Under the pieces are notes generated by a model. The model ran no database searches. It saw nothing but the letters and a program-made list of their open reading frames with translations, and had not been told where the DNA came from. Positions 3,163-60,965 of a DNA stretch of 64,000 nt are shown here, one piece after another (the stretch's first letter is position 1; every line of letters begins with the position of its first letter). Source of the stretch: Mobula hypostoma (Eukaryota); assembly GCF_963921235.1 (NCBI RefSeq), contig NC_086097.1, positions 13,764,001 through 13,828,000 of the forward strand. The letters are read 5' to 3'. Both the position numbers and the translations under genes were made by a program.

Positions 3163-3295
3163 ACCAGGTGAAGGGTCTTGGCCCAAAACAGTGTCTGTTT
3201 ATTCATTTCCAAGGATGCTGTCTAACCCGCTGTGTTCATCCAGCATTTTGTGTGTGTAATTCTGGATTTCCAAGTTTGCAGAACCTCTTGTGTTT
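3163..3295 (+). mobile_element. Penelope-derived short element (degenerate hammerhead plus 3' tail)
   Basis: ggtgaagggtcttggcccaaaac...ccagcattttgtgtgtg, shared with many copies in the window. Confidence 0.75.
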
Positions 3296-3649
3296 CAGTT
3301 CTATTTCAGGTTTTCATCTCTCAGTGGTGGAAATTCAGTGGTGAAGGTATGTTAACCCACAAAATCCTCAACACATACAATGCTTGTAAGGCTGAACAAC
3401 ACAGTTTCTGAGCTCCTGAAGTGCTCATCAATGTGAAATCAAATATGCACTGCATCTCTGAGTACCCATGTAGGAAAAGGAAAAATCCTGCACATGATTG
3501 TGTGTGCATGTTTTTGTTTTGAGTTAGAATCAGAATCAGGTTTATTTTCACTTGTATATGTCATGAAAATTCTTGCTTTGTGGCAGTGGTACAAAGTGCA
3601 AAGTCCAAAATACATTTATTATCAAAGTATGTACATTTTAGCTATATTG

Positions 3650-3785
3650 TCAGGAAAGGAATGGAGGGTTATGGGCTGAGTGCAGGTTGGTGGGACTAGG
3701 TGAGAGTAAGAGTTCAGCACAGACTAGAAGGGCCGAGATGGCCTGTTTCCCTGCTGTAATTGTTATATGGTTATACGGTTATATT
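3650..3785 (+). mobile_element. CR1 3' end fragment
   Basis: gaagggccgagatggcctgttt plus short tandem tail (tggttata-like). Confidence 0.6.
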
Positions 3786-3884
3786 TTTCAGGCTTGAGAT
3801 TCTTCTCCTTACAGGCAGCCACTTAAAAAAGAAACCTCAAAAGAAACCATTTAAAAAATAGACCATACAGTACAAGACATAAAC

Positions 3885-4460
3885 TTTGAGTGTGGGTCTT
3901 CAGGCTCCTCTACCTCCTCCCCATTGGTGGCATTCAAAGCAGGGCATGTCCCAGTTGCTGAGAGTCCTTAATGATGGATGCTGCCTTCTTGAGACACTGT
4001 CTCTCGAAGATGTCCTTGAAGGTGAAGAGGAATATGCCTGTGATGGAGCCTGCTGAGTCTACAATCCTCGGTAGCCTCTTTACTCTCAGCCTTCACACTA
4101 GGCTGTGGCGCAGCTAGTCAGAATGCTCTCCAGCATACATCTATAGAAATTTGTATGGGTCTTTGGTCACATACTAATACTCCTCAGATTCCTAATGAGG
4201 TAGATCTGCTGGCATTCCTTTGTAATGATTTGATCTTTGTCTTGAATCCAGGATAGATCTTCAGAGATGCTAACGCCCAAGAACTTGAAACTGCTCACCT
4301 TTTCCACTACAGATCCCTCGATGAGGACTGGTGCGTGATCGCTTGACTTCCACTTCCTGAAGTCCCTGATCTTGCTGACATTAGTGCAAAGTTGTTGTGA
4401 CACCACTCAATCATTTGATCTTTCTGGCTCTTGTACAGCTCCTTGTTGCCATCTGAGAAT
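3885..4460 (-). mobile_element. Rex1/Babar-like LINE, 3' RT region, degenerate
   Basis: ORF 4167..4406: HAPVLIEGSVVEKVSSFKFLGVSISEDLSW. Confidence 0.85.
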
Positions 4461-4494
4461 ATGTGTCTGTATGTCAATTTACGTGTGCACCCAT

Positions 4495-4905
4495 TCCATG
4501 CCCTCCTCTTGATCCAAGATGAGGCCACCCTCAGGATGGAGGAGCAACACCTTATATTCCGTCTGGGAAACCTCCAACCTGATGGCATAAGTATAGATTT
4601 CTCCTTCTAATGAACAAATTTCCCCACCCCACTTATTCTCACCTGCCTATTCACTCTTCTTTCCCTTTCTCTTATCGTCCATTCTCCTCTCCTATCAGAT
4701 TCCTTCCTCTCCAGCCCCTGACCTTTTCCCACCCACCTGTCTTCTCCTATCATCTTCCAGCTATCCCCCACCTTTATACTCTGACACCTTTCCCCTCCCT
4801 CTCAGTCCTGAAGAAGGATCTCAGTCTGAAACACCAACTATCTATTCATTTCCATAGATGTTGCCTTACCTGCTGAGTTCCTCTAGCGTTTTGTGTGTGT
4901 TGCAT
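4495..4905 (+). mobile_element. Penelope-like element 3' part: GIY-YIG C-terminus, pyrimidine-rich UTR, degenerate hammerhead
   Basis: Translates EATLRMEEQHLIFRLGNLQPDG; cagtcctgaagaagg...tgaaac at about 4803. Confidence 0.85.
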
Positions 4906-4954
4906 TGATGTGTGTATATTGCGTAGGTGCGTACATGTTTGTGTCTATGTTTGA

Positions 4955-4955
<1 letters not shown>

Positions 4956-7057: not shown

Positions 7058-7240
7058 GGACACAAGAGAAACTGCAGATGCTGGAAATCTTAATCAACGA
7101 ACACCAAAATGCTGGAGGACCTCAATGGACCGGACAGCAACTATCCTCAAGAAGAGTATTGACTTGAAACATCAACTGTTCATTTTCCTCCATAGAAGCT
7201 GCCTGACTTGCTGTGTTCCTCCAGCATTTTGTGTATGTTG
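7058..7240. mobile_element. Penelope-derived fold-back element
   Basis: aaaatgctggaggacctca ... gtgttcctccagcatttt in inverted orientation. Confidence 0.8.
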
Positions 7241-7281
7241 ATCCATTGCACCAGTATATTGCCTGTTCACACACACTAGAG

Positions 7282-13517: not shown

Positions 13518-13554
13518 GAATAGAGATTTCTAAACAGATCACTTTTTGACAATT

Positions 13555-13680
13555 GTGTCCTAATGAAGGGTCTCAGCCTGTTTATTTCTTTTCATTGACA
13601 CTGCCTTGCCTGATGAGTTCTTCCAACATTTTGTATGTGTTACTATGGACTGCAGCATCTGCAGAATCTTCTGTGTTTCG
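13555..13680 (+). mobile_element. Penelope-derived short element
   Basis: gtcctaatgaagggtctcagcc...gagttcttccaacattttgtatgtg. Confidence 0.75.
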
Positions 13681-14480: not shown

Positions 14481-15685
14481 TAAGGAGTAGAATCATTTGG
14501 CCACTATACATTCCCCAAGTGCATGGATGAGTGATCTGATCTGAAAGGGATTTTTTAGGAATCTGGAAAGAATAAAATAGCTTAGTGTAGGATTTGTATA
14601 AAAATGGGTGCTTAATGTTTGGCATGGACTCAGCAGATTGAAGCATCTGTTTCTGTGTGGTACAGTATCTCACCATGGCTCCATGAAGTCACACAAGTAG
14701 GGAAGGGTGAGACTATAGACAAATATTCAAGTATGAATGATCAGTTTAATATTGAGGTGTTAGATTAACAAATATTTAGTATTGCTCTTTATATGACTCA
14801 GTTTAACTAAGGATAGAATAAAAGGGTATGGTTGAATTGTTTTGGGTAAGTCAGAAACCTAAATTAGCAAAAAGAATCTTAGGAAGACTGAGCAGATCAT
14901 TAAGTATTTGAGGAAAAAAGAAAAAAAAAGAAAACAGAATTAATACAGTATGAGAAGAAGTGGTTCTGAACTGGCCAGTGTTGACAGAAACAGTAAAGGG
15001 TGGTTATCTGAAATTGCTGAATTCAGTATTGTGCCAGGGTTTGCTATGTGCCTTAATGGAGTGTTGTTTCTCGAGCACATGGAACAGTCTGCCTCTGTTT
15101 CAGACAGCTGCCTGAAGGTCAAGGACCTGAGTGGTGTAAGTGTCAAAGAAAATGGCCTTGGTCCTCTCACTATTTGCTTCAAGTGACGTTGGTCTATCCA
15201 GTTCACATGCATTCTCTGATCTGTACTTGGCATTATGGTGTGTAAGTATGATAGTATGTAAATGAAAAATAATTGAAGACAGAATGAAACTATGGGACAG
15301 TCCCAAGTAAACGGTGAGGGAGCTCAAGGAGAAGTAGACCGGTGATTCTCAGGCTGTGAACAATTGAAGAACGTTGTTGTGGTCACCCACATCAAAGACT
15401 GCAGATAAAGTGCAGATGGGGCAACGGAGTACCAGAGGATGACATTTGTATCTTTGATTTTTTTTAAAAAACTTGACTTTATAACATAGGACTGAAACCT
15501 ATGCAGAGGGTTGCAGCCAAGCAACTACTCAAAATAATAACAGCAGAAAACTCATAAACAGCATGAACCTCTGAAGAATCCTTCCATCCAGACATTAAAC
15601 AGGTGTTAAACCTTCATATGCTTGAGTTCAACAGATGGCCATTTGAATCTTTGTATCTGTGCTTGCTTCTTGAAAGAACTGTGCT

Positions 15686-15790
15686 ATCAGTCCTAAAGAA
15701 GAGTTTTGGCCTGAAGCCTTGACTGTTTATTCCCTTCCACGGATGCTGCCTGACCTGCTGAGTTATTCCAACAGTTTGTGTATGTTGCTC
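15686..15790 (+). mobile_element. Penelope-derived short element
   Basis: cagtcctaaagaagagttttggcctgaagccttgactg...gatgctgcctgacctgctgagtt. Confidence 0.75.
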
Positions 15791-16189
15791 TGTATAATCA
15801 GTCCTACTCCCTCTGTTTTTCCTCATCGCCATATAAGATCTTTTCCCAGATATTTTTCAAATTTCCCCTGAAGGTTAACATCGAGTCTGTTTTAATTGTA
15901 CTTTCAGGATTCAGATTAACAGTGCTGTAATAGAAAACACATTCTTTCCACACCATCAAATTACTTTTCACCCGAAAACAGGCATCCTACAGGCCAACTA
16001 TATTTTCTTCAAGGTCTTTCTGCTGAATAATTCTCTTAGACACAAGGCCTAAAGTGCCACTCACAATGACGTAGACCGTGCACACCCAACACACTCGAAG
16101 CTCCGTCCTCTTCTTATTCTCTCTCTGCAGAAGTAGCATCTAAAGACCTGCTGTGACAGCAGACAGAAGCAGGTCCCAGAATAAAAGGG

Positions 16190-21590: not shown

Positions 21591-22609
21591 AAGCAACATC
21601 TGTAAGCAACGCACACAAAATGCTGGAGGAATTCAGCAGGCCAGGCAGCATCTGTGGAAAAGAGTATAGTCAATGTCCTGATTATCATATCCATAATACT
21701 TTAGTTTGAGCGTAGTTTTTAAAGCATCTACCATTCTGTGGTCACCTTGCCAATGTTTCACCTGAAATGTCTCCTGCCCAATTCCAAGACTCAAAGAGTG
21801 AGTATTCAGGGGCATCACTAAACCACATTTTCCATCTTCCTTAGCCCATCCAGATTGCTTTCATTTAATAAATTCACATTCATTCGTAATTTTACTTAAA
21901 TTTGATGATTTATAAGACATTTTCATGTAAACTTCAAAGAAAGAATTGTCCCCTTTTGTTTCTTTCCATTTATTCTAGTTTTCTTTATTTTACATTAACA
22001 AATACAAACTAGCACTAGCAGCCAATTCCCAGATCACCAGTATATTTATTAGATGTAATATTTTATATCTTTGCAGCCAGAGTTGACATTATCATCTCTT
22101 TCCTATTTCAATAATAATAATCTCTAATCATTCCTTGACAGGAGCTAATGGTTTCTTTTATTATACAAGAAGCTCATGGAACTCACTCTGTATGGAGCAA
22201 AGTGAGCTTTTTTTAAAAAAAAATGCTAATTCCTTTCATGATATAGACTTCCTTGAAGTCCTAACAAGGCAAGATTTGATGAAAATACTACCAGTATGAG
22301 CAGAGAAATAATCAAAGGATTATAACTATCCTTTTAACATTTTCCTTTATTTTTGTTTTAGAAGAGTTAATAGCTTTTTACTAGCTGATACCTATATTTA
22401 GGCTTAAGTAAATAGCAAACCGATGTCGTTACTGTTGCAACTCGTTAACTCATATGGCATCTGGGTGAGAGCTCAGTGCATTTTTATGCTCTTACTTTCA
22501 AACTTTGCCTTTCCACCTCTAATGATGTAAGGGCACAAAAACTGGGAGAAATGATAGCTCCTCAAGCTGTTTTCAGCATTCTATAATATCAGAGCTGATA
22601 TACTGTGGT

Positions 22610-23699: not shown

Positions 23700-23920
23700 G
23701 GCAAGCTTCTATCCAGATGCAATCATCTGCCAACTTCCCCTCCCCGCCACCTTTTTATTCTGACTTCTGCCCCCTTCATTTCCAGTCCTCATGAAGAGCT
23801 TCAGCATGGAACATCTGCTGTTTATTTCCCTTCATAGATGCTGCCTGATCTGCTGAATTCCTCCCATACTTTGTATATGTTGCTTGAGATGTTCAACATC
23901 TGCAGAACCTATTGTGTTTA
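23700..23920 (+). mobile_element. Penelope-derived element
   Basis: cagtcctcatgaagagc...gatgctgcctgatctgctgaattcctcc. Confidence 0.75.
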
Positions 23921-25737: not shown

Positions 25738-25872
25738 TAAACACGAGAGATTCTGCAGATCCTGGAAATCCAGAGCAACACACACAAAATGCTGAAGGAG
25801 TTCAGCAGGTCAGGCAGCATCTGTGGAAGTAAATAAACAGATGGCACTTTGGGCCAAGACCTTCGTTAGGAC
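25738..25872 (-). mobile_element. Penelope-derived short element
   Basis: acacacaaaatgctgaaggagttcagcaggtcaggcagcatc...gggccaagaccttcgttaggac. Confidence 0.8.
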
Positions 25873-25933
25873 ACAATGGTCATAAAGTGATTTGTTTAGC
25901 GCATTCTTAGAGCTAGGGCTCAACTCTTCAGAG

Positions 25934-27218: not shown

Positions 27219-27415
27219 CACAAACATGAGAAAATCTGCAGATGCTGGAAATCCAAACACACACAAAATGCTGGAGGAACTCAGCAGGCCAGGCAGCATC
27301 TATGGAAAAGAGTAAACAGTCAGGTCTGGTGTAGGGTCTCGGCCTGAACCATCCACTGTTTACTCTTTTCCATAGATGCTGTCTGGCCCACTGAGTTCGT
27401 CCAACATTTTGCATA
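27219..27415. mobile_element. Penelope-derived fold-back element
   Basis: cagcatctatggaaaagagtaaacag ... ctgtttactcttttccatagatgctg is an exact inverted repeat. Confidence 0.9.
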
Positions 27416-28786
27416 TGGAACCCTGCTCTCCATTTGACTGTCAAGATGCAGACCTATGAGTTATCCATGAGAGATTACAACCAAGCACCGTTCCAGAACC
27501 AGAATTCAGACAGATAATACTTTGAATTTCATTTGCAAAGGAGTAGAAGTTTACATGACTTACTTAAACTCCCATAATACAAAACTTCCACACCCCTTCT
27601 CCTACAGCCAAAATGTACTGAACATACATAAATAAAAATAAACAGGTATAAAAAATATATATAAAATATATCATTCAAACATCATAGCCTTAGGTGCAAA
27701 TCCATCAGCAGACCACAGTCTTCAATAGACACACCCATCAGACCACCAAGGAGTCAGCTGAATAACCACTCTTGCGGACCACTAGACCACTAGATAAAAT
27801 GGATGAAACTATTTAAAAGCACCATGAGAAGCACACATCAGGCACAAACTAGCAATGAGAAATGCAAAATATTAATCCATCTACCACTGGAAATCTCTCC
27901 CAGATACGTAACCAACCACCAACATATCACAGAATGAAGTGGTGTCACACTTTCACCCGTAGGAATGTTTGGGTTTTTATATGAGGCAGACCTTCCAAAG
28001 CAGATGTGACACAACTGGTATGGAAGGAGCCAGATTTTGATTCTCTTTAAATATGTTTTGGTAACTGTATGGTGGTCTATATGCATAATGCCATGCCTCA
28101 TCTTTTCAAAGTGTGGTGCAATTGAATCCTGTCTTTTCAAAGAAATATGTTTTGCAATCTATCTACTTCTATATTCACATCATCACATTTCTTCTAAGCT
28201 ACAGTTATTCAACAACAAATTTGAAATAGGACTTAACTCTCCTGTTCTTAACAAGTTTTAACAATACTGTTATTGTTTAAGTTCAACTTATTTTGCTACT
28301 CTTGTTATTGAATGTTATGAAGAGCATAAATTTACCAAAAGCACCATTTATTAATAAACTCCAGAAGCGCTACTTCACAAATCCCAAGAGCAAAATGGGG
28401 TTGGACTGGATTTGCTTGAAGATAGAGCTGAGGCCAAATATCACGTCAGGCATGAATTTTTGTGGAGCTTTGAGGAGGGGGAGTACAGCCAATATTTGTT
28501 CCTGCTTCTTGTATTCTTATTGTATATGACTATTTATTTCTCTGACTGAAATTTGGCCCGGAGTACCTTTGCCAGCACCTCTTAAATTAAGGATTCAATT
28601 ACTGGATTAACATCCATGCCTGGACCATTGATTCAAAGAGGTAAATTCAAATTCTACCAAAGCTTGGGAAGTTAAACAGGAGCAATAACATAAGGCTGGA
28701 TTTGAAGCTAATCTATGTATTAATAATCATGAGCAACACACAAAATGCTGAAAGAACTCATCAGGTCAGGCAGCATCTACTGAGAG

Positions 28787-29553
28787 TGTTGGCCAGACAT
28801 AACGACAATCAGAAAACAGGAATGGAGGCGACCATTTTGTGACACTTTCCTTGCAGCCACCATTTTGTGAACTGCTTGAACTGATTTCTTGTTCTGGGAT
28901 AATTTCATCAGAGCAATGGAATGTTGGCACAAGGAAGTTTTCTGCTAATGACCTGCTAAACCTGAGACCATTCTCAGACAAGTAGCGATATATTACGTAA
29001 AGTAACATGCTTGCAGGAGGAGGCTTGGTGTCCGAGACACCTGGTTTAACTGGTTTGAACCTGACAGAGTTGAGAAAAAACAATAGGGATAAGGCTGAGG
29101 GCAAAGATCATACAGCAAGGTTAGTTGCTGTCCTGGACCAGAGCTAATAAGAATGTGACCCAGGTAGTTGGGTGACATCAAGCAACAGGATGGAAATGCG
29201 ACATTTGAATGGATGAGAAGTGTTTAAAAAAGAAAGGAGATTCACATGCAAGGCAGTGACAACTCTCCAGAGACCCACCATCACAGATGTGCAGATCACC
29301 ATTGATACATGGAGGTTGGAGTGGGACCACACGGATCTCCAGGCCAGCGTAGACTCCTTTTCCGGGTAATAACTTTCCGACTCATTGACTGTTTGTGGAG
29401 AGTTATGGAAGCCTAATGGGAGCGCACACAGGTATTTAGTTTGTGAAACCAAGTATTTTTTAGTTGAGACAACAAAGGCTACTTGTCGGTAAATACAAAT
29501 TTTCTCTCTGTGTCTCTTTGATCATTACTACTAAGGGGTAGGTACTTGTAACA
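28787..29553. mobile_element. Solo LTR (767 bp) inserted in a Penelope-derived element
   Basis: TGTT...AACA termini; 4-bp TSD agag at 28783-28786 and 29554-29557; host element rejoins across it. Confidence 0.8.
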
Positions 29554-35240: not shown

Positions 35241-35639
35241 TAGTGATGTTGACTTGCACTGTGTAATTTAATGTTACCTATTCCCCTCCCTCCTCAGCTC
35301 TACCACCATTTATATTCCTTTTTGGCCACTGGGTTAACATCAAACCCTAAAAATTATTATTGAATCATGTTTACACCCAAGCAAATCTAAGCGTAGAATT
35401 TCCAAATTAAATTTGAATCCAAGATAATTAAGCAGAAAATTAGCTCTGTGTAACTCTATGAAATGCAGACAGCAATGACCTGCATAAAGTTTCTGAAGAA
35501 CTCAGAGGAATGAAATTCAAAAAGGTCCCAACATGTCAGGCCAGCCTTTATCTGGGTTTATTTGCCTTAAAAGCTCATACAATTCTTTTCCTTCCACAGA
35601 TGCTGCTCAACCATCTAAGGTCCTCCAGCAGATTGTTCG

Positions 35640-36385
35640 TTGTAACGCACGCAAAATGCTGGAGGAAGTCTTACAGGCTAGGCAGCATCTATGGGAATGA
35701 ATAAATAGCCAGACATTTAAGGCTGACACTCTTCGTCAGGACTGGAAAGGAAGGGGGAGGAGAATGGGTACTGGTTAGAAGGTGATAGGTGAAGCAAGAG
35801 GGTGGGGAATGGGGACGGATGAAGTCAGAAACTTGGAGGGGATAGGTGGAAAAGGTAAAGGGCTGGAGAAGAAGGAATCTGATAGAAGAGGAGAGTGACT
35901 ATGGAAGAAAAGGAAGGAGGTAGAGCACTCGGGAGATATGATAGGCAGGTGAGGAAAAAAGGGAAGAGGCCAAAGTGATGAATTGAAGAAGAGGAAAGGG
36001 GTGGGGAAAAATACCAGAGGTTGGAGACATCAATGTATATGCCATTAGGTTGGAGGCTATCTGGACAGAATATGAGGTATTGGTCCTACAACCTGAGAGT
36101 GGCTTCCTCATGGCAGATAATAGACCAATATGTCATAATGGGAATGAGGATAGGAATTAAAATGGCTGGCCATTGGAAATTCTGCTTTTTGAGGATGGAA
36201 TGGAGGTGCTTGACAAAGAGGTCCCCCAATCTATGTTGAATCTTCCCAATGTAGAGGAGACCATGGATACAGTAGATATTCCCAGCAGATTCACAGGTGA
36301 AGTGTTGTCCCACCTGGAAGTTACATTTGGGGCCCTGAAAGGGGATGAGGGAGGATGCAAATGGGCAGGTGTAGCAATTCTGCTG
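35640..36385 (-). mobile_element. Penelope-like element with GIY-YIG endonuclease remnant
   Basis: ORF 36086..36460 HFTCESAGNIYCI..LLYIGK..RLGDLFVKHL...EEATLRL, followed by UTR and degenerate hammerhead at about 35705-35745. Confidence 0.9.
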
Positions 36386-36652
36386 CTTGAAGATCCCAAA
36401 TTGCAACATCTGCAGTCTCCTGATTTCTGAGTCTATATTTATGGCCCAGAAACTTACCAAACAATAATTATGGACCCAATATGTGAAAATAAAGAAAAAA
36501 CTGCAGATGTTGGAATGTGAACATTACATAGCTGTTGTCTACCTTGAATGGTTATACCCCTTCTCTGGCTATTTTAAAGACAAGAAAAAAGAAGAAAAAG
36601 AAAGTTCAAAGTTCAAAGATAAATTATAATCAAAGTACATATATATCACCAT

Positions 36653-39555: not shown

Positions 39556-40169
39556 TATTACACCTGAACTTAAATAAAAGTCATGGAGAAACTTGGTGGG
39601 TCAGACAACCTCTGTGGAAGCAGGATGATGATCAGCATTTTGTACTGAGATCCTACATCAGGATTTCTAATCCACTGAGCTCTTCAAACAATTTTTCTTT
39701 GTTCCACATTACATTTCCAGCAGTCTCTTATGTGTCTATTATATCTAAACAGCCTACTGTGGGATTAATGTGAACCCATCCAGGAAATGGATGCTTCTTT
39801 TCAATATAAGTGGCCTGAAATTTCTTCTTTGCCAGTTCAAGTTTCTCCTTTTGATAGTTATTAAGTGGTCACATATTGCTCAGTGGCACCATGACATGCA
39901 GCAGTGATTCTGATCTGGAGACTGTGTTTATAAACCAGTCAATGCTACTAGGTCATAAAGATGTATTGCAGGTCACACGAAGATGAAGGATGGTAAGTAC
40001 TTCTGCTCCAGGTTGCAGTTATTGTGGAACATTTGTGAGAAGAGCAGAAAATTCTGAAGAGAGAACATGAAGACTGGTGAAGAAATTAGAAACCTGATGC
40101 CTTTGCACAAATACTTCTCAAAGTTATGTATCGTTGACTGGATTTAGGGATGAAACAAGTTACCCAATG

Positions 40170-41560
40170 GAAGCAAGGATCCATCATCAAGGACCCCCAC
40201 CACCCAGGCCATGCTCCCTTTTTCCATCATCAAGGAACCTCACCACCCAGGCCATGCAGCATCTCTGGGAAGAGTACAGTCAGTGCTTTAGGCTGAGACT
40301 TTTCATCAGAACTGGTGAAAAAAAGATGAGAAGTCAGAGTTAAGGTGGGGAGAGGGGAGGAAGAAATACAAGGTAGTAGGTGATAGGTGAAACTGAGAGA
40401 GGGGGAGGGCTGAAGTAGAGAGTTGAAAAGCTGATTGGTGAAAGAGATAAGGGCAGCATTTTGTGTGCGCTGCTTGGATATCCAGCATCTGCAGAATTTC
40501 TCTTGTTTGTCACCCAGGCTATGGTCTATTTTTCCATCATCAAGAACCCCCACCACCCAGGCCATGCTCTCTTCTCATTGCTGCCATCAGGAAGCAGATA
40601 TCCCACTTCTCCCGGAAGTTCTGGGAGTCACTGCATATTGATAGTGGCTACCTGATGCCCGCAATTTGTATAAAATGTCCCAGAAATCAATTTTTGGAGA
40701 GAGAAACTGAGCGTGAGAGTGACCACAAGAGAGCGTGCGCACGAGAGAGAGAGCATGAGAGTGACCATGAGAGAGCGCGTGCACGAGAGAGACAGAGCGT
40801 GAGAGCTACCACGAGAGAGAGCGAGCGACAGAGAGTTCCAAAAAAAGAAAATATAAAACGTACGTCACCCCAGACTACCCTAAAGTGTAGCCCTGCCTAA
40901 TAGGGGTCAAAAATAATGACAGTGTTGCTCGCTGCACTGTTTGCAACAGTGACTTTTCTATTGCCCATGGTGGGTTAAGACTGTAAAAGACATGTTGAGG
41001 TGAGTTTAACAGGTGTCATTCGTTCATTAGCATAGCTAACGTTATTTAAACTAGCTGGTTAGCTGCTAAGGAGCTACTCTATTGCAGACATCCCACCTCT
41101 CCCGGAAGTGTCCTGCAAATTGATGGTGCTACCTCCCTGAAATGAGTTTTTGTATGGTGGGATGTCTGATGAGGAAGGTGCAGGTGCCTCAGAACTCACA
41201 CCATCAAGTTCAGGAACAGTTAATACCCCTCAACCATCAGGCTCTTGAACCAGAGGAGATAACTTAACTCGGCCCGGCTCTGAACTGTTCCCACAACCGA
41301 TGGACTCATTTTCAAGAACTCTTTATCTCATGTTCTTGATTTTTTTGCTTATTTAATTGTTATTTTTTTCTTCTCTATTGTATTTGCAGTTTGTTTTCTT
41401 TTGTATATTGGTTGGTTGTCTATCCTGTTGGGTGCGGTCTTTCAATGATTCTATTATGGTTCTAGGATTTACTATATATGCCTACAAGAAAATGAATCTC
41501 AGTTGTATTTAGTGACATATATGTTCTTTGATAATAAATTTACTTGGAACTTGAACCTTG
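40170..41560 (+). mobile_element. Rex1/Babar-like 3' end, interrupted by a Penelope derivative (about 40250-40510) and a TIR element (40595-41168)
   Basis: Three partial ccatcatcaag..ccccaccacccaggccatgc copies; host resumes at 41169. Confidence 0.75.
40595..41168. mobile_element. Composite non-autonomous DNA transposon with cargo
   Basis: TIR cagatatcccac / gtgggatgtctg; flanks atcaggaag / atgaggaag; third TIR copy at 41085. Confidence 0.8.
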
Positions 41561-42299: not shown

Positions 42300-43590
42300 A
42301 AACAGAAGAAAATCTGCAGATGCTGGAGGAACTCAGCAGGATAGGCAGCATCTACGGAAAAGAGTAAACGTTCGACATTTCTGGTCGAGACTCTTCAGCA
42401 GGAGTGAGAGGGAAAGGGGGGAGACGCCCAAATTAAATGGTGGGTGGAGGGGAAACGTAATCAGTAAACAGTATAGCAAACGGCTTGCTGCCCTAGTGAT
42501 AAGACCGCTGTTTTGGCAGGGTACTTATAGCATCAATTTCACGCTGAGCAAGTTTCAGCACTATGACAAATAAAGTAAGCACAGCACACTTCTTCATTAG
42601 GGTCAGAGAAATAAATGTCACCTGCAGCATGAAATTCAACATGAAGCAAGAATTTCAAAGTTACAATCACTTTCATCTAACACTTTTAAAATCAAAACTA
42701 AAGGACCTTTGATCATTTCCCCAATTTGTTCAGAGAATGTGACAACACTGATATGGCCAGCATTAATCAGCAATCTCTAATTGTCCTTGGAAACACAAGA
42801 GACTGTGGTGAGAGACTCAGGAACAAAGATCAGTCTGCTGGGGGAACTTAGCAGGTCAAGCAGCGTCTGTCAGGGAGAGGAATTTCAGGCCAAGATCCTG
42901 ATGCAGAGTATCAAACCTAAATGTTGCTTGACCTGCTGAGTCCTTCCAGCAGCTTGCTTTTTGCTCCAATTATCCTTGGCGTGGGTGACTTGCTTGGCCA
43001 AGTCAGGGTGCAGTTAACCATCTTAATCTCGGCCTTCAGTCACATCCAAGGCAGAATGACAAAACCAATGCACTGTCATCACAAATGTGAACCAAGTGGG
43101 AGCTTTGATAATCTTGGTTCTCTCACTGTCACCATTGATGGCATTTGCTTCTTACCTCAGACTGAATAAGCTGAATTCAAATTCTCCAACACATAAATAC
43201 CGGGGAGTCTGCCCATGGTGAAAATCCAAAGCAACAGATACAAGCTGTTGGAAGAACTTAGCAGGTCAAGCAGCATCTATGAAAATGAATAAACAGTTGA
43301 CATTTTGGGCCGAGACCCTTTGTTTGGACTGGAAAGGAAGGAGGAAGATGCCAGAACAAGAAGGTGGGGGGAGGGAGGGGAAGGAGGAGAAGTGGGCAGG
43401 GGAGGGGAATGAAGTAGGAAGCTGGGAGAGTGAACCAAGGGAGAAAGGGAAGAAGGAGAGGCACCAGGAGGACGTGATAGGCAGAAGAGGTAAGAAACCA
43501 GAGTGGGGAATAGAAGAAGAGGGAAAAGGGAAAGAAATTACCAGAAGTTGGAGAAATCGATGCTCATCCAGTTGTTTTGGAGGGTTTTGA
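42300..43590. mobile_element. Three Penelope-derived copies: 42300-42455 (-), 42793-42965 (fold-back), 43222-43590 (-)
   Basis: gaact.agcagg...gcagc.tct motif in each. Confidence 0.75.
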
Positions 43591-48329: not shown

Positions 48330-50835
48330 CGAAATTCACAGGTTCATATACAATGATAATAAGAAATAAAAAAGCAGAAATGGTTGGTTATGTTGGAAAG
48401 ATAGACATGCTCAATCGAACAAAATATAACTTGGTGATGTACTCTGAATGAATTGAGCAGTATCTTGAAGCAAATGAAATGGCCAATGAAAAGTGAGTGT
48501 TAGTGTTCCTGACTGCAATTGGTACAGTTTGCTTAGAAGTTTGACTGCTGCAGCCAAACCAACTTTACTTATATAGTGAACGTAATATCAATGGAATATT
48601 TAGAACAGTAACCATTCAGTAACTAATCAAAAGGCAGGGGAGAACATTGCAATTTATGTGATTGAACTGAACAGATAATCCGAGCATTAATGATGAGCTA
48701 CGAGATTGTTTACTTTGAGGAATCTTACAAGAAGCTCAATTCACATTTAAAACAGCGGTTGAAAGTGCTGTATCGATGGAAACATCAGGGGGAGACAAAA
48801 TTAAATTGCAGTTGGGAATGAATGTGAGTGTGAATAAAATTTCAACATCTAAACAGAAACCAGCCTTGCTGAACAAATTGTGTTACCACAAACATGAGAA
48901 AATCTGCAAATGCTGAAAATCCAAAGCAACATATACAAAATGCTGGAGGAACTCAGCAGGCCAGGCTGAATTTATGGAAAAGAATAGTCGATGTTTTGGG
49001 CTGAGATCCTTAATCAGTCCTGATGAAAGGTCTCAGACCAAAACATCAACTATTTACTCTTTTGCATAAATTATATTACCATTGTGGCAGGGGCTCACAG
49101 ATGCCAGACCAACGTATGTTTAAAGGAGAAACTTGCAGAAAATGCAACAAAGTAGGACACATGCAAAGAGCATGTCAGGCAAACAAAAATAAATTGATTG
49201 CACAGGGAAAAGAAAAAGATAAAAAGTAAAATTGCATTCCAAAAAGAGCTCTAATCTGCATGCTGTTGATGAAAAACCTGATAATGATGACAGTGACATA
49301 GGACTGAGAGGCCTGGAGATTTACAACTTGAAAGCTAACAATAGACAAAAGAAGTAAACCAGAAGTAATTGGCAAATTAATTAAAATGGAATTGGACTTT
49401 GGCTTGCTATTTCAGTCATTCCACAAAATGAGTTAAATGGCATTTCAAAGATACTGAACCGAAGCCTGCAGATGTCTGACTAAGAACTTATACTGGAGTA
49501 AAGATAACTTTTGTGGGAATGACATTCATAATAGAGAAATATAACAACCCTCAAGCCATATTTGGCTGGTAACAAGAGAGCCAACATTGATTGGCTGAGA
49601 GTTGATTGGATCCAACCCCAATTTGCATGCCACAGTTGAGTGGAGCCCATGGGCATGGTAGTGAACCCAATAAATGAAAAAGATAGGTCTTTCAGGATCT
49701 GTGGTGATCTTAAGGTACCCATTAATCCAGCATTGAAGGTAGATCAATACACTCTGCCCAGGAGAGAGAATACCTTTGAAGGCCTGTCTGGAGGGAAACA
49801 ATTCAGCAAAGTGGACCTGGTTGAGGCCTGCTTATAGATGGAAATTGAAGAAGAGTTGCTCACCATAAACACTCACAAAGGGCTTTTTCCACCTGGATGA
49901 TATCTGGATGATATCATTGTTAACAGCGAGGGTGACAAGGAACATCCCCAAAATCTTAAAACAGTGTTAAACAGATGAGAAGATTGGGTGCTCAGAGCAC
50001 AATGTGAGTGTGAATTATTTAAATGAAGCGTCGCTTACTGTGGTCACACCATTGATGCAAAAGTATTACACAAATGTGCTAAGAAAGTTCAAGCAGTGGT
50101 AGATGCTCCAAGCCGAAGGACGTATCATAGTTGTGGTCCTTTTTAATACTTGTCTATTCCTTTACAGGTTCCTGCCAAACCTAGCTATTGTGTTCCACCC
50201 TTTGAACTTACTAGTACAGAGTGGAAAGAAATGGCAAAGGACAAAGCAATGTGAGATGGCTTTCTGAGGGTAATGAAAATGGTGACATCAGACACTGTAC
50301 TCACACGTTATGATCCACATCATCCAATGAAGCCTTCCTGTGAAGCCTCGCCTTATAGTATAGTTATAGTCATGTTATGAGTAATGGATGTGAACACCCC
50401 ATAGCAATTGCATCACGTCTTCTTACCACTGAAGAGAAAAATTACACACAGATTGACAGAGAGGCCTTGAATCTGGTTTGGTGAGTAAAACTTTTCAACC
50501 AGTACCTGTATGGGAGAGAGTTTACCCTCATTACTGATCATCAACCACTGGAGTCCATTTTCACTCCACAGAAGGGTGTTTCACTAACAGCAGCAACACA
50601 AATGCAGAGAGGGGCTCTGTTTCTTGTAGGACACAATTACAAGATCAAATTCAAGAGGACAACTAATCATAGAAATGCTGATGGATTGTCCCATTTATGC
50701 TTGGAAAAGGAAATACTAGAAAAATTATAAAGAGGGCACTCCTCCTGACGTATTCTCCCTAATTAAAAGTCTCCCTATTATGGCAGAGATGATCCAAAGA
50801 GAAATTAGAAAATACCCTGTAGTTTCTCAGGTCTG
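48330..50835 (+). mobile_element. Degenerate Ty3/Gypsy gag-pol remnant, no LTRs or integrase seen
   Basis: gag start at about 48380; CCHC knuckle CRKCNKVGHMQRAC; protease MELDFG; RT RICGDLK..INPAL, YLDDIIV; RNase H EKNYTQIDREAL, TDHQPL; many stops and frameshifts. Confidence 0.9.
48889..49067. mobile_element. Penelope-derived fold-back inserted in Gypsy gag
   Basis: Flanked by aaattgtgttacca (48875-48888) and aaattatattacca (49068-49081). Confidence 0.85.
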
Positions 50836-53039: not shown

Positions 53040-53725
53040 CAGAGTACCTCCACTTTGTCCACTATGCCAGCCAGAATCTCCCAGTGGCCGGCCACTTCCC
53101 ACTCCCACACCAATCTCTCTGTCCATGCTCACTCTCATTGTCAAGTTGAGGTTAAATGCAAATTAGAGGAACGGTACCTGGGCAGTCTCCAACCTGGTGG
53201 CATGAATAGTGTATTTTCAAACTTCTGGTAATGGTTCCCTCTCTGTCCATCTCCTCTTTTCTCTCTCCTCCTAATCCACTTAGCCCCTGGCACCCTATCT
53301 CTTTCCACTCCTCTATTCTCTCTATCTGTGAATCACATACATATTCTCCCACTGATTCCCCTCTTCGTCTCCCTCTCTTTATGTCAAGCTCCATCTGCAT
53401 CTCCTATCAGATTCCATCATCTCCTGCCCTTCTCACTTCCACCTAACACTTAGCAACTTCTGACATAAACCCTACTCTACTCCCCTCTCTTATCTGTCTG
53501 TCAGCCCCCCCCAACCAAACTGGCTCCATTTATCACGTGCCAGCTCTTGCTCTATCCCTTCCCAACAACCTTATATACTGTATATTGGCTTTCTCCCCTA
53601 TATCTTTCCATTCCCTCTGAAGGACCTCAATTTGCAATGTTGACTGAACCTTTCCCTCCATAGATGCTGCTTGATCTGGTGCATTGCTCAGATACTTTGT
53701 GTATTGCTCTAGATTTCAAGCATCA
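53040..53725 (+). mobile_element. Penelope-like 3' part (GIY-YIG C-terminus, UTR, decayed hammerhead)
   Basis: CKLEERYLGSLQPGGMNSVFSNFW. Confidence 0.8.
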
Positions 53726-57358: not shown

Positions 57359-58467
57359 AGATACTGGAAAGAACCTGAAAAGGCCTGAAATTTCTTCAGA
57401 TGTTTCTCAATGGCCCACAGGTACAGAAGGTACATTTCTTTGTACTGAAACATCAATGTATTGCATAGGGTAATTCCAAAACATGAGTTTAGTAACATTG
57501 AGGGAAGGGGAAAAGTACACTTGAATCACCCCGGTATAGTGACCTTACACAAATTCCTTCTGCACTATTGCTAAACGAAAGCGGCACATTAGTATTATGG
57601 AGTAAGAATTGGTGACTAATGCATGGTTTTGTCATATGTTCTGGCCTATTAATTAACTTGAACCTTCAAGTAATGGAATTATGTGCCATCAAGTAATTCT
57701 ATTCAAACACCAAACCTCTACTGGGGCCCAGATGATTCAGCAGTTAAATGTACCCATGGGACATGGATTTGAAACTAATCCAGTCTCTCTGTCAGTGGTA
57801 AGAATTTTAAATAATCTCATTTTGGACAATTTCAACCCAGATTATAATAAGGGCTGGTTGCAGATCTGTTCAGGTTCCGAATATTTTGCCTGTGATCAAG
57901 AACATTAAAAAAATTAAAATATAAAGAGCGTTTACAGGGCCAGAGTGTCTGAATGAGATTGGATTTTACACTTTGGAGCTTGCTGGGAATTAAAATTATA
58001 AACAGTTACATTGAGAAAGATTCTTCATTCTCCAACCTTGGCCTCCCTCTGATCATAACACCAAGTTCCATATGTCCCTCATAATTTATTTATCTTTGCT
58101 GAACTGCCTCATACATGTGCATGGGAGTGAAAAAAACATTGCAGATGCTGGAATTCTGAAACAAAATGCTGGAAACACTTGGCAGGTCAAGCAGCGTCTG
58201 TGGAAAAGGAAACAGGGCTAATGTTTCAAGTCAAAGAACTGTGAAAGGGAGAAAGCAAGTTAGTCTAGTTAGCATAGGGGGTGGAGGAGGGTAATAGATT
58301 GAACAAAGAGAATGCCTGTAATGGGGTGAAATGATGTATTACCATTGAATGGACAGTCAAACTCCTTTCTCTGTGTAACATTTTACCAATGCTGTCAAAT
58401 TAGGATGTCATTGGCTGACTGGGACTTGCCCAGCAGGCCATAATATCCAAATCAAAGAGAGGAATAT

Positions 58468-58865
58468 TTACTTACCGAAACCCATCACCCCTACAGGGGT
58501 GTAGACCACCAAGAGCGCCTCGCCAGAGTGCCTTGTCCTGAGCCGGTCTTTTAAGTTGTTCCCATGTGTAGCCCATTTCCTTCTCAGCAAAGATCCTTCC
58601 TCTCCCACATCCTCGGTGCATCTGTTGACATTTTTCTAGCTCTGGGATTTTTATGGGATGGGGTTGCTAGGCATTATGCCTAACCCTCCTCCTTTCAGGG
58701 CATGAAGAGATACGGGGAGAAGGTCGGGGATTGGGGACGAGAGGGAAAATGGATCAGCCGTGATGATATGGCATAGCAGACTCGATAGGCCAGATGTCCT
58801 AATTCTGCTCTTATATCTTCTGAACTTATAGACTTTCACAGGCGGGCTTTGGACCATTCATGGCA
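58468..58865 (-). mobile_element. RTE-like short element (related to 60998-61220) with a CR1 3' end (+) nested at about 58700-58832
   Basis: Shared cccatcac.ccta...ccagag...tttatgggatgggg...aaccctc..cctt. Confidence 0.55.
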
Positions 58866-59604
58866 GTGTTAAAGTGAGGAATAGCAATCAGATCAATGGC
58901 TGGTTCTGACACAAATGGAATGAAAAAGCTTCATCTTCAGGGAACATGATCTCTTGACATTTTTGTTGGAACGTTCATTGCAATTTCTCAGCTGAAACAT
59001 TAACTCTCTTTCTATCTCCATTGATGCCTCCCGACCTATTGAGTTTCTTCCAGCATTTTTGTTACTGCTGAGTACATGCCACACTCCTTAAGTGACAGGA
59101 GGCTACGCATAAAGCAAATTAATTTTTAAAAGTGATATTTTGTGCAACAAAGCTTCAAAGCTTCAGAACAATTATGCAAGGAACTCACACACAGGCTGAA
59201 CATCCCCTCACATGGAGCACGCTGTTTTCCAGCAGTTCATACTCTTGTTGCTGTCTTTTCGTCTCTAGCCTCTGGCAATTCTGCAAACTAGTGCAGCTGG
59301 GCTGGTGTTGTTAACATGAGCAAATTTAGGAACATTCCAAGGGTAAGTCACCGAGGATCAGAAATGGTGCGGCACAAACTCCAGAACTTGAGAAAATACT
59401 GGAGGATCTCACATGTCGGGGAAGTCAGTGAAGAGAAAACAGTAAATGCATCAGATTAGAAGTCTTGAGTTTGCACCTCACTGGTGCTCACCTTTTCCAA
59501 AATTTTCTATTTTTAATTCAGGTTTCCAACTTTTATAGTTTTTTCTTTGCTTTCAAAATAGGAAAAAGAGAGTAAGCCTAAGTGTCCCTCAAGCCTGCTA
59601 TTCC

Positions 59605-59795
59605 TCTCTGTGGAATTCACTGCTACAGATGGCTGTGGGGGCCAAGTCATGGGGTATACTTAAAGGAGAGGTTAATAAGTTCTTGATTAGTAAGCGTGTC
59701 AAAGGTTACCAGGAGAATGGGGTTGAGAAGGTTAATAAATCAGTGGAGCAGACTTGGTGTGCTGAATGGCCTAATTCTGCTCCCGTACTTATGGT
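59605..59795 (+). mobile_element. CR1 3' end
   Basis: tctgtggaattcactgc...gaatggcctaattctgctcc. Confidence 0.8.
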
Positions 59796-60564
59796 CTAAT
59801 ACTGCTACTGCTGTATATGTAACATTTCCAAAATGAACTGAACAGCCCTCTCTTAATATAGCAGACAACAAAATATACTTCGAAGTTCAGAATATATGTT
59901 ATCAAAGTTTGTATACTATATACAACTTCGAGATTAGTCTCCTCACAGGCAGCCTCAAAACAAAGACACCCAATAGCACCCATTAAAAAAACCCATCAAA
60001 CACCGAATGTACAAACCAAAAAAGGCAAATACAAACCAAAAAAGGCAAACATTAGAAAGCAAGCAAATAACATTCAGAATTGATGATCACGAAAGTGAGT
60101 CCACAGCCACGAAGCTAACTACAGCCGATCCAGGGGCCTGTTAGTTGCTGGCCACACCCCATTTCAGCGCAGAGACGAGTAACCTCGTGAGCAGCGAGCT
60201 GAACAGCGGGTATGGATCACATTGTCTGATTAGTAAGGACAACAAGGGACCAGCAACTGATTCAACTTTTCAGAGAAAGAACAAGAATGGTTAGCTTTGT
60301 TTGTACGTTGAAACATTGAAACAGACAGTGAGATTTGCTGTTTGCCTCAATGACTAACGCAATCTGAGGACGTGCAGGGGGCAGCCCACAAATATCGCTA
60401 TGCTTCCAGTACCAACATAGCATTTTAATAAATATGTTAATAGAGCATTAAAAGTCATTTATTGACATTACAACTTCTTTCACCCCGCACCACATTTGTT
60501 TGATAGCTTTTTAGCCTGCTTCTTCAATGTTATCATTTCCTTGAAGTGTCTCCTGGCCCAACAT

Positions 60565-60965
60565 CTTCCTTCCCTCCCCCTCCCTTCCCCTATCCCTATG
60601 TCACTCTGCCCCTCCCCCAGCTGCCTATCACCTCCCTCAAGGTTCCGCCTCTTTCTACTACCCATTGTGTTTTCCCCTATTCTTTCTTCACCTTTCCTGC
60701 CTATAACCTCCCTGCCTCCCCTCCCCCACCCCTTTACCTTTCCCCTTACTGGTTTTTCACCTGGAACCTACCAGCCTTCTCCTTCCCATCCTCCTCCCAC
60801 CTTCTTTATAGGGCCTCTGCCCCTTCCCTCTGCAGTCCTGACGAAGGGTTCCGGCCCGAACCATCGACTGATCTTTTCCACGGATGCTGCTCGACCTGCT
60901 GAGTTCCTCCAGTGTGTTGTGAGTGTTGCTTTGACCCCAGCATCTGCAGATTATTTTATGTTTAC
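60565..60965 (+). mobile_element. Penelope-derived element with hammerhead motif at 60833-60870; close relative of 31270-31630
   Basis: cagtc ctgacga a gggttccggccc gaacc atc gactg. Confidence 0.9.

What the first reader, a model, noticed from the sequence alone, without database searches (positions are those of the whole stretch)
3163..60965. High-copy Penelope-derived family carrying a minimal type I hammerhead ribozyme (retrozyme-like)
Seen: about 20 copies share one motif. Combining 31533-31570, 60833-60870, 49015-49052 and 11183-11216(-) gives CAGUC-CUGA(U/C)GA-A-GGG[UCUCGG]CCC-GAAAC-GUC-GACUG. Helix I is CAGUC/GACUG, helix II is GGG/CCC, helix III is reduced to the palindrome ACGU, and the cleavage triplet is GUC. 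Longer copies (4495, 31186, 35640, 53040) extend into GIY-YIG coding sequence, tying the family to Penelope-like elements. Established: PLE terminal repeats carry minimal hammerheads with palindromic helix III thought to act as dimers, and an extra A after A9 occurs in natural hammerheads. Inference: at about one copy per 3 kb this would be a very large ribozyme-bearing family in this genome. Most copies here are broken, often at CpG positions in the core.
Basis: partly seen in the sequence, partly recalled or inferred. Interest (0 to 1): 0.8.

Follow-up and report, generated by a model that had tools for sequence, protein, structure and literature searches.

The report
Decayed Penelope retrotransposon tails with hammerhead motif
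The window is littered with old, broken tail ends of a Penelope-like retrotransposon whose tail carries a known kind of minimal hammerhead ribozyme motif; the kind is ordinary, but this genome holds an unusually large number of copies.

Summary
A profile of the repeat finds 33 copies in the 64-kb window. Of these, 25 cover the 38-nt motif. Their majority consensus reads CAGTC-CTGATGA-A-GGGTCTCGGCCC-GAAAC-ATC-GACTG. No window copy is intact: 0 of 33 pass a minimal-hammerhead descriptor.

The inferred ancestor exists elsewhere in the genome. The 28-nt core occurs 125,519 times at 2 mismatches or fewer, against 0 for the reversed pattern.

The family is a Penelope-like element. [quoted passage not shown] The frame sits in a 3,514-bp head-to-tail tandem, with the motif about 100-130 nt from the unit's 3' end.

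This matches the minimal PLE hammerheads described in 2014 (PMC4209133). It is a new member of a known kind.

The "retrozyme-like" label is not supported. Copies are dispersed, 5'-truncated or head-to-head, not short tandem arrays.

One deviation stands out. The commonest exact 38-mer, found at all 11 loci picked by protein match, has U instead of C at position 11.1 (29,805 vs 4,395). Cleavage was not testable.

The parts
3150..3277 (+). decayed PLE 3' end (motif + tail)
   Evidence: nhmmer E=1.3e-30; 10 differences in the 38-nt motif
4497..4604 (+). GIY-YIG C-terminal coding remnant of the copy ending at 4919
   Evidence: tblastn with an element protein, 78% identity over 36 aa, E=1e-12
4794..4919 (+). 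decayed PLE 3' end; both core boxes kept, helices broken
   Evidence: nhmmer E=1.8e-31
7074..7144 (-). tail fragment, head-to-head with the next copy
   Evidence: nhmmer E=3.3e-07
7129..7259 (+). decayed PLE 3' end
   Evidence: nhmmer E=3.5e-30
13548..13654 (+). decayed PLE 3' end with a 12-nt deletion in the motif
   Evidence: nhmmer E=2.5e-19
15681..15802 (+). decayed PLE 3' end
   Evidence: nhmmer E=2e-34
21600..21679 (-). 5'-truncated copy (tail, part of motif)
   Evidence: nhmmer E=5.8e-23
23771..23902 (+). decayed PLE 3' end
   Evidence: nhmmer E=3.3e-28
25756..25884 (-). decayed PLE 3' end with the long 3' tail form
   Evidence: nhmmer E=7.9e-32
27239..27356 (-). copy in a head-to-head inverted pair
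   Evidence: nhmmer E=3e-26
27312..27429 (+). partner of the head-to-head pair
   Evidence: nhmmer E=5.1e-29
28716..28831 (-). tail only; motif part unrecognisable (24 differences)
29554..29609 (-). motif-only fragment
   Evidence: nhmmer E=9.9e-08
29671..29793 (-). copy in a head-to-head pair
   Evidence: nhmmer E=2e-29
29758..29848 (+). partner of the head-to-head pair
   Evidence: nhmmer E=4.2e-10
31186..31263 (+). GIY-YIG C-terminal coding remnant
   Evidence: tblastn 81% identity over 26 aa, E=3.5e-08; 31168-31284
32954..33064 (-). old divergent copy, head-to-head pair
   Evidence: nhmmer E=1.9e-08
33033..33146 (+). old divergent copy, partner of the pair
   Evidence: nhmmer E=1.5e-24
35587..35642 (+). 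tail fragment, tail-to-tail with the next copy
   Evidence: nhmmer E=4.4e-09
35632..35753 (-). decayed PLE 3' end belonging to the EN remnant at 36020-36388
   Evidence: nhmmer E=6.4e-20
36020..36388 (-). longest coding remnant in the window: last 131 aa of the element protein (linker + GIY-YIG)
   Evidence: tblastn 48% identity over 131 aa, E=3e-29
39584..39672 (-). old divergent copy
   Evidence: nhmmer E=8.5e-09
40248..40316 (-). partial copy
   Evidence: nhmmer E=1.3e-11
42300..42410 (-). decayed PLE 3' end
   Evidence: nhmmer E=5.2e-26
42804..42918 (-). copy in a head-to-head pair
   Evidence: nhmmer E=1.2e-16
42853..42974 (+). partner of the head-to-head pair
   Evidence: nhmmer E=4.8e-19
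43211..43341 (-). decayed PLE 3' end; 6 differences in the motif
   Evidence: nhmmer E=5.8e-34
48906..49025 (-). copy in a head-to-head pair
   Evidence: nhmmer E=2.3e-31
53091..53225 (+). GIY-YIG C-terminal coding remnant
   Evidence: tblastn 51% identity over 49 aa, E=3.4e-09; 53007-53399
53607..53723 (+). decayed PLE 3' end downstream of that remnant
   Evidence: nhmmer E=5.8e-13
58159..58236 (-). partial copy
   Evidence: nhmmer E=5.7e-12
58991..59059 (+). partial copy (weakest hit)
   Evidence: nhmmer E=1.7e-05

Best explanation
The window holds 33 old, dead 3' ends of a Penelope-like retrotransposon (PLE) of the Neptune-like type.

Shown:
- The element is about 3.5 kb. [quoted passage not shown]
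- Its 3' UTR holds a 38-nt minimal type I hammerhead motif about 100-130 nt from the unit's 3' end. Downstream of the motif lies a strongly conserved block (GATGCTGCCTGRCCTGCTG...).
- New insertions are usually 5'-truncated, so nearly every fragment keeps the motif. This inflates the motif count without needing a dedicated ribozyme-bearing family.
- Where units sit head-to-tail, the 3' UTR of one unit lies just upstream of the next open frame. This gives a hammerhead on both sides of the frame, the 'pLTR' layout.

Inferred, by analogy with published PLE hammerheads:
- In read-through or tandem transcripts, two motifs pair through the ACGU palindrome into a double hammerhead.
- Cleavage after GUC, probably slow and helped by other factors, trims transcripts towards unit length.

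My confidence that this is a PLE family with a min-HHR motif is about 0.9. My confidence that cleavage is the selected function is about 0.4-0.5. The figure in the confidence field is a blend of the two.
For: Motif and copy number:
- Consensus and copies in the window.
- Intact motif elsewhere in the genome: 125,519 hits of the 28-mer at <=2 mismatches against 0 for the control. Exact 38-mers number 4,395 and 29,805.
- The descriptor is met by copies in 18 of 20 fetched loci (L001-L020; L012 and L014 carry core substitutions). It is met by 5 sites in an arbitrary 200-kb sample.

PLE identity:
- L019 has a 1,043-codon open frame with RVT_1 (residues 534-696, E=6e-5) followed by GIY-YIG (946-1020, E=1e-3).
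- The linker CKRNKCYTC is read.
- 957 homologues score E<=1e-3, and many are precomputed as PF00078 plus PF01541.
- The protein search gave 185,931 first-look candidates in this genome.

PLE architecture:
- A 3,514-bp direct tandem at 99.7% identity carries the motif in both 3' UTRs.
- Copies share a 3' end and vary at the 5' end.
- Two alternative 3' ends lie about 35-43 nt apart in 8 young copies: 5 long, 2 short, 1 other. This fits the PLE 'tail'.
- Head-to-head inverted pairs number 6 in the window. Among the first 100 genome sites within 1 kb there are 10 (-,+) pairs against 0 (+,-).

Literature match:
- PMC8557442 (passages): pLTRs, inverted 5'-truncated copies, a 30-40 bp tail, the CX2-5CxxC linker in Neptune, and hammerheads within pLTRs.
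Against: - No cleavage or RNA-end evidence could be obtained.
- Rfam's hammerhead models do not score even intact copies at E<=10.
- Nearest-neighbour energies do not favour the active fold. The HHR-like monomer is -8.9 kcal/mol against an MFE of -12.9, in which GACG of the core pairs with CGUC. The double-hammerhead dimer is -16.7 against -25.8 for two MFE monomers and -34.1 for an extended duplex.
- The commonest variant, present at all 11 loci picked by protein match (L010-L020, 12 motif copies), has U11.1. This turns the conserved G10.1-C11.1 pair into G.U or shifts the register.
- For an anole PLE, published work found that hammerhead mutants did not change in vitro insertion, and no RNA-seq reads ended at the cut site (PMC11167929, passages).
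- Pfam scores for RVT_1 and GIY-YIG are below the curated cut-offs.
Confidence: 0.65

Rival explanations
1. The element and motif are the same, but catalysis is not what keeps the motif. Under this reading the 38-mer and the adjacent conserved block persist for one of two reasons. They may be part of the RNA that the element's RT/EN recognises near its reverse-transcription start. Or the motif may simply ride along in the master copies.
For: - The U11.1 form is 6.8 times commoner than the canonical C11.1 form as an exact 38-mer. It is the form at all 11 loci picked by protein match.
- The active fold is not favoured thermodynamically.
- The tail block next to the motif is at least as conserved between subfamilies as the motif itself.
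- PMC11167929 (passages): hammerhead mutants insert normally in vitro.
- PMC8557442 (passages): PLE clades without hammerheads proliferate well, and the authors raise the possibility that hammerheads parasitise PLEs.
Against: - All 15 core positions, both helices and the palindrome are kept in tens of thousands of copies.
- A9-to-C copies are rare: 326 exact hits against a control of 2.
- The same motif class recurs in PLEs from many phyla (PMC4209133).
- No structure or covariation was found for the tail block.
Confidence: 0.3
2. This is a retrozyme-like non-autonomous family. Short hammerhead-bearing units would be transcribed, cut at both ends and circularised, and PLE enzymes would copy them back into the genome.
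For: - Most copies are short and non-coding.
- One direct pair 460 bp apart appears among 100 listed sites.
- A 2026 preprint argues that animal retrozymes derive from PLE pLTRs (10.64898/2026.07.22.740005, abstract and passages).
Against: - The window has no tandem array of the unit.
- Copies have ragged 5' ends and a shared 3' end, as truncated insertions do.
- The short copies are collinear with the 3' UTR of coding copies, and 4 run into the endonuclease open frame.
- The motif lacks helix III and the loops of retrozyme hammerheads (PMC7229834, passages).
Confidence: 0.05
3. The hammerhead likeness is a chance resemblance inside an ordinary SINE or LINE tail.
For: - Rfam finds no hammerhead.
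- LINE RT and endonuclease remnants are also in the window.
Against: - The descriptor gave 0 matches in 100 simulated windows.
- The motif satisfies every feature of the published PLE minimal hammerhead, including three that were not part of that paper's search descriptor (PMC4209133).
- It lies in an RT + GIY-YIG element.
- The LINE remnants in the window do not adjoin the copies.
Confidence: 0.02

Closest known systems
Minimal hammerhead ribozymes (min-HHR) in the flanking repeats of metazoan Penelope-like elements (Cervera & de la Pena 2014, PMC4209133)
   Same: - Type I topology with a short helix I (5 bp).
- CUGANGA and GAAA boxes.
- One unpaired nucleotide between A9 and 10.1.
- No helix III loop, with a palindromic 15.2-16.2 (ACGU).
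- A GUC triplet.
- Located in the PLE repeat, and mostly found as solitary motifs from truncated elements or as close pairs on opposite strands.
   Different: - Helix II is only 3-4 bp, whereas the Schistosoma families have 7-8 bp.
- The commonest form has U at 11.1 instead of the 'highly conserved' C.
- The copy number is far above the roughly 4,000 (coelacanth) and 9,000 (Xenopus) reported there.
- The motif shows very little sequence variety, whereas that paper stresses extreme variability within a genome.
Neptune-clade EN+ Penelope-like elements (Arkhipova 2006, recalled; features as summarised in PMC8557442)
   Same: - A single open frame with RT followed by a C-terminal GIY-YIG endonuclease.
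- A CX2-5CxxC linker.
- Tandem units forming pLTRs, and inverted 5'-truncated copies.
- An optional 30-40 bp tail.
   Different: Clade placement rests on the linker motif read by eye. No phylogeny was built. The CCHH motif was not checked rigorously.
Poseidon PAc of Anolis carolinensis (PMC11167929)
   Same: A PLE with a hammerhead in the pLTR. Genomic copies end at two alternative sites that define a short 'tail'.
   Different: In PAc the hammerhead overlaps the start codon, and the cut site is 26 bp into the open frame. Here the cut site lies about 130 nt upstream of the next unit's first in-frame ATG.
Animal non-LTR retrozymes (PMC7229834)
   Same: These are hammerhead-bearing repeats in the 10^5-copy range (126,247 motifs in axolotl). 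Their vertebrate hammerheads work best as dimers.
   Different: Retrozymes are 170-400 bp tandem units with canonical type I hammerheads and are expressed as circles. The copies here are dispersed truncated PLE ends with a minimal motif.

Membership tests
PLE minimal type I hammerhead (min-HHR) | CUGANGA and GAAA core boxes in type I order | tested here: met
   Met in genome copies. In the window only 2 of 25 copies keep both boxes.
PLE minimal type I hammerhead (min-HHR) | Helix I and helix II can pair | tested here: met
   Helix I is (C/U)AGUC with GACUG, 5 bp. Helix II is GGGU with GCCC, 4 bp, loop CUCG. Descriptor matches. None of the 33 window copies passes.
PLE minimal type I hammerhead (min-HHR) | [quoted passage not shown] | tested here: met
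   An extra A is present in the consensus and in all intact copies. The feature is named in PMC4209133.
PLE minimal type I hammerhead (min-HHR) | G10.1-C11.1 pair | tested here: inconclusive
   Met in 4,395 exact 38-mers. Replaced by G.U, or by a register-shifted A-U, in 29,805 exact 38-mers and at all 11 loci picked by protein match.
PLE minimal type I hammerhead (min-HHR) | No helix III loop; palindromic 15.2-16.2 allowing a dimer; NUH cleavage triplet | tested here: met
   GAAA-CG-UC gives the ACGU palindrome and a GUC triplet.
PLE minimal type I hammerhead (min-HHR) | Lies in the repeat (pLTR) flanking a PLE open frame | tested here: met
   In the L019 tandem the motif sits at 6474-6501 and 2960-2987 (-), on either side of the open frame at 3285-6416.
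PLE minimal type I hammerhead (min-HHR) | Self-cleavage after H17 | not testable with these tools
   No raw RNA reads were available. Energies do not favour the active fold.
Rfam hammerhead families (Hammerhead_1 and relatives) | Score at or above the family's gathering cut-off | tested here: not met
   No hammerhead hit in the window at gathering or at E<=10, nor in three loci with intact copies. I infer that these models expect a helix III stem-loop.
EN+ Penelope-like element | Single open frame with RT followed by a C-terminal GIY-YIG endonuclease | tested here: met
   RVT_1 E=6e-5 at residues 534-696 and GIY-YIG E=1e-3 at 946-1020, both below Pfam's cut-offs. Homologues are precomputed with PF00078 and PF01541.
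EN+ Penelope-like element | CX2-5CxxC linker (Neptune-type) and CCHH in the endonuclease | tested here: inconclusive
   The CKRNKCYTC linker is present. CCHH was judged only by eye, and no alignment to reference PLE endonucleases was made.
EN+ Penelope-like element | Tandem units (pLTR), inverted 5'-truncated copies, optional 30-40 bp tail | tested here: met
   Tandem of 3,514 bp at 99.7% identity. Head-to-head pairs: 6 in the window, and 10 against 0 of the opposite kind in 100 genome sites. Two 3' end classes lie about 35-43 nt apart in 8 copies.
Animal non-LTR retrozyme | Short (about 170-400 bp) tandem repeat units, each with a canonical type I hammerhead | tested here: not met
   The window has no such array. 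Only 1 direct pair closer than 1 kb appears among 100 genome sites. The motif is the minimal form.
Animal non-LTR retrozyme | [quoted passage not shown] | not testable with these tools
   No run on record as RNA. All runs are kept as contigs.

The most novel reading that the evidence does not exclude
This genome may be a natural experiment on what PLE hammerheads are for. The lineage that holds the open frames and most of the perfect copies carries a hammerhead whose G10.1-C11.1 pair has become G.U, and it still reached tens of thousands of CpG-intact copies. There are two possibilities. The minimal PLE hammerhead may tolerate this change. Alternatively, cleavage may be dispensable, and the 38-mer plus its conserved neighbour block may be kept as a protein-recognition element for the element's RT/EN. 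At about 36 near-intact cores per Mb, this would also be one of the densest hammerhead-motif loads reported for a vertebrate.
Probability: 0.25. Interest if true: 0.55.

Novelty: new member of a known kind. Interest (0 to 1): 0.3.

Why it matters
The class (minimal hammerheads in Penelope-like elements) is established, so the finding mainly annotates a very large repeat family.

Two points go beyond routine annotation.

First, scale:
- 125,519 near-intact cores in 3.48 Gb is about 36 per Mb.
- The axolotl has 126,247 motifs (PMC7229834) in 28.21 Gb (size from the 2026 preprint passage), about 4.5 per Mb.
- A rough extrapolation gives about 660,000 tail copies in all: 38 per 200 kb in the sample, with a profile built from the old subfamily.

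Second, the dominant U11.1 variant gives a simple handle on the open question of whether PLE hammerheads must cleave. Both natural forms can be compared at the bench.

Tried and rejected
- **Rfam.** No hammerhead hit in the window at gathering or at E<=10, and none in three loci with intact copies. The only hits were sub-threshold miRNA-like matches caused by inverted pairs.
- **My first fixed-spacing pattern** was mis-spaced. It gave 3 chance-level hits and was discarded.
- **Pfam on all 193 window ORFs of 75 aa or more.** No GIY-YIG hit. The RT and endonuclease hits belong to LINE-like remnants. GIY-YIG remnants were found only by tblastn with an element protein.
- **PDB sequence search with the 1,043-aa frame.** 0 hits.
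- **RNA evidence.** No RNA holder is listed among the 23 runs. All are kept as contigs.
- **Laying four runs.** It showed related contigs in four coded organisms, no table of starts or ends, and an opposite-strand joint at 2948/2990 in two runs. Among the 40 best-supported variant sites shown, none lies within 2955-3006. However, 84 sites were not shown, so I draw no conservation claim from this.
- **Tail-block structure.** RNAalifold predicts no pairs. My two hand-drawn stems show no covariation, with 138 of 500 shuffles reaching the observed score. Helix 19-26/78-85 is 85% paired against at most 49% when slid, and the helix 2 columns are misaligned between subfamilies.
- **Idea that an A9-to-C subfamily had amplified.** Rejected: only 326 exact hits.
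- **Lunse et al. 2016/17 (PMC5785218).** Not held. I know it only through the review PMC6765202 (passages).
- **Earlier findings of this scan.** Nothing.

Full report

A 24-nt core of the repeat's tail, with up to 5 mismatches, occurs 20 times in the window. It is usually preceded by a degenerate hammerhead-like stretch. An nhmmer profile built from those 20 finds 33 copies at E<=0.01. They run from 3150-3277 to 60823-60940, about one per 1.9 kb.

Aligned to the profile, the majority consensus reads ...TTCAGTC CTGATGA A GGGTCTCGGCCC GAAAC ATC GACTG..., followed by a conserved tail.

State of the 25 copies that cover the 38-nt motif:
- Each differs from the motif at 4-24 positions.
- Only 2 keep both core boxes.
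- 80 of 281 differences are CpG transitions.

None of the 33 copies passes a minimal-hammerhead descriptor that I wrote. The descriptor requires helix I of at least 4 of 5 pairs, CUGANGA, 0-1 extra nucleotide, helix II of at least 3 bp, GAAA, a paired 15.2-16.2, and UH. 100 Markov simulations of the window also gave none.

So the window holds only wrecks.

**2. The ancestor exists in the genome.**

The window is G000:C1:13764001-13828000 in a 3.48-Gb assembly.
- The 28-nt core CTGAYGAAGGGTCTCGGCCCGAAACGTC with up to 2 mismatches occurs 62,770 + 62,749 times. The reversed pattern gives 0 + 0.
- Copies in 18 of 20 fetched loci pass the descriptor.
- In an arbitrary 200-kb sample (20 x 10 kb on ten contigs), the window-derived profile finds 38 copies, 29 of which cover the motif part. 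Five sites pass the descriptor.
- The window is therefore about 2.7 times denser than this sample. A rough extrapolation is about 660,000 tail copies and on the order of 10^5 descriptor-grade motifs.

**3. What the element is.**

Young copies share a 3' end and have ragged 5' ends. Upstream of the motif, longer copies encode ...CKRNKCYTC...GVIYCVRCSRCGLLYIGET....

A protein search of the genome with this piece gave 185,931 first-look candidates. All 150 that were scored reached E<=8e-134, some inside open frames of up to 1,043 codons.

The clearest example is L019:
- It has a 1,043-codon stop-to-stop frame.
- The frame has RVT_1 at residues 534-696 (E=6e-5) and GIY-YIG at 946-1020 (E=1e-3), both under Pfam's cut-offs.
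- Its homologues (957 at E<=1e-3) are widely precomputed as PF00078 with PF01541. The closest named ones are shark proteins at 69-72% identity.
- Two units lie head-to-tail with a 3,514-bp period at 99.7% identity, each with the motif in its 3' UTR.
- The first in-frame ATG of the downstream unit lies about 130 nt past the upstream cut site.

RT followed by a C-terminal GIY-YIG, the CX2-5CxxC linker, tandem 'pLTRs', inverted 5'-truncated partners and an optional 30-40 bp tail are the features of canonical EN+ PLEs as summarised in PMC8557442 (passages). All of them were seen here:
- Head-to-head pairs number 6 in the window.
- Within 1 kb among the first 100 listed genome sites there are 10 (-,+) pairs, 0 (+,-) pairs and 1 direct pair.
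- Two 3' end classes lie about 35-43 nt apart in 8 young copies.

In the window, tblastn with the L019 protein finds only endonuclease C-terminal remnants. No RT was found. The Pfam RT and endonuclease hits in the window belong to LINE-like remnants.

**4. Comparison with what is known.**

PMC4209133 (parts 1-2 read) describes minimal hammerheads in the repeats of all PLEs examined. Its features are:
- no helix III;
- a conserved G10.1-C11.1 pair;
- palindromic 15.2-16.2;
- mostly solitary motifs from truncated elements, or close pairs on opposite strands;
- a presumed dimeric mode of action with low in vitro activity.

Copy numbers reported there are about 4,000 in coelacanth and about 9,000 in Xenopus. 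The review PMC6765202 (passages) says the same and cites Lunse et al., which I could not read.

The present motif meets each feature except one. The exact 38-mer with C11.1 occurs 4,395 times. The one with U11.1 occurs 29,805 times. All 11 loci picked by protein match, with 12 motif copies, carry U11.1.

Those 38-mers keep their other CpGs intact. The U is therefore inherited from a master copy and did not arise by repeated decay (inference).

Mean pairwise identity over 196 nt is 92.6% for the U-type copies and 90.3% for the C-type copies. The two sets were chosen differently, so this says little about relative age.

**5. How it probably works.**

Shown: the motif lies about 100-130 nt from the unit's 3' end. 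Every 5'-truncated insertion therefore carries it, and in tandems it flanks the open frame on both sides.

Inferred from the literature: two motifs pair through ACGU into a double hammerhead and cut after GUC, which trims read-through or tandem transcripts.

Evidence against strong activity:
- The HHR-like monomer fold (-8.9 kcal/mol) loses to a hairpin in which GACG of the core pairs with CGUC (-12.9).
- The double-hammerhead dimer (-16.7) loses to alternatives (-25.8 and -34.1).
- In an anole PLE, hammerhead mutants inserted normally in vitro, and no RNA-seq reads ended at the cut site (PMC11167929, passages).

The main rival is that the motif is kept for a reason other than cleavage. I give that about 0.3.

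**6. 'Retrozyme-like'.**

Animal retrozymes are 170-400 bp tandem units with canonical type I hammerheads, expressed as circles (PMC7229834, passages). The window has no such array. The copies are collinear with the 3' UTR of coding elements. A 2026 preprint (abstract and passages) derives retrozymes from PLE pLTRs, so the two are relatives. This family is the PLE itself, not a retrozyme.

**7. RNA evidence.**

No listed run is on record as RNA, and all are contigs. Laying four runs showed related contigs in four coded organisms but no starts or ends. Expression and cleavage remain untested.

**8. Verdict.**

It is a new member of a known kind. Two things make it notable. One is scale: about 36 near-intact cores per Mb, against about 4.5 per Mb for axolotl motifs (PMC7229834, with genome size). 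The other is the dominant U11.1 variant.

Noticed in passing
L047 (G000:C2:122689550-122690300), minus strand: A 39-bp minisatellite of 16.4 units at 88% match. Its unit is the hammerhead segment itself, with A9 changed to C or U and a GUU triplet. It starts next to an inverted tail copy. The unit has no complementary helix I strands, so it does not look like a working ribozyme array.
   Followed up: partly
window copies and L001-L020, about 15-100 nt downstream of the motif: The block GATGCTGCCTGRCCTGCTG...CCAGCA...GTGTGTTGC is at least as conserved between old and young subfamilies as the hammerhead. An 8-bp stem (AGATGCTG with CAGCATCT) is possible: 85% of cells pair, against at most 49% when slid. 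There is no covariation, and RNAalifold predicts nothing. It could be the RT recognition or initiation region.
   Followed up: partly
window 32954-33146, 39584-39672, 42804-42974: An older, more divergent set of copies reads CCTGATGCAGGAT, a near-palindrome, in place of CCTGATGAAGGGT. Their tails read CCAGCAGACTG. Genome-wide, the A9-to-C form is rare, with 326 exact hits.
   Followed up: partly
window 48979-49062; L002 145-264: Sub-threshold miRNA-family hits in Rfam (MIR2606, MIR2118, mir-3156) coincide with head-to-head inverted element copies. They are long hairpins made by the insertion architecture, not miRNA genes.
   Followed up: no
window 832-1743(-), 37134-38198(-), 55857-56327(+), 50485-50727(+): Remnants of other retroelements: an AP-type endonuclease frame (Exo_endo_phos, E=3e-16), RVT_1 frames (E=3e-34 and 2e-10), and an RT_RNaseH piece (E=4e-7).
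   Followed up: no
window 34161-35239 and 4956-5002: A 1.1-kb degenerate (GT)n tract, and a (TG)23 run that starts about 40 bp after the copy ending at 4919. The PLE literature reports microsatellite insertion bias for some clades (PMC8557442, passages). Not tested here.
   Followed up: no
L022 8448(-) and 9648(+): A head-to-head pair 1.2 kb apart shares a third variant, G at position 11.1 (CCGGAAAC). The two arms of such pairs therefore appear to come from one insertion event.
   Followed up: no
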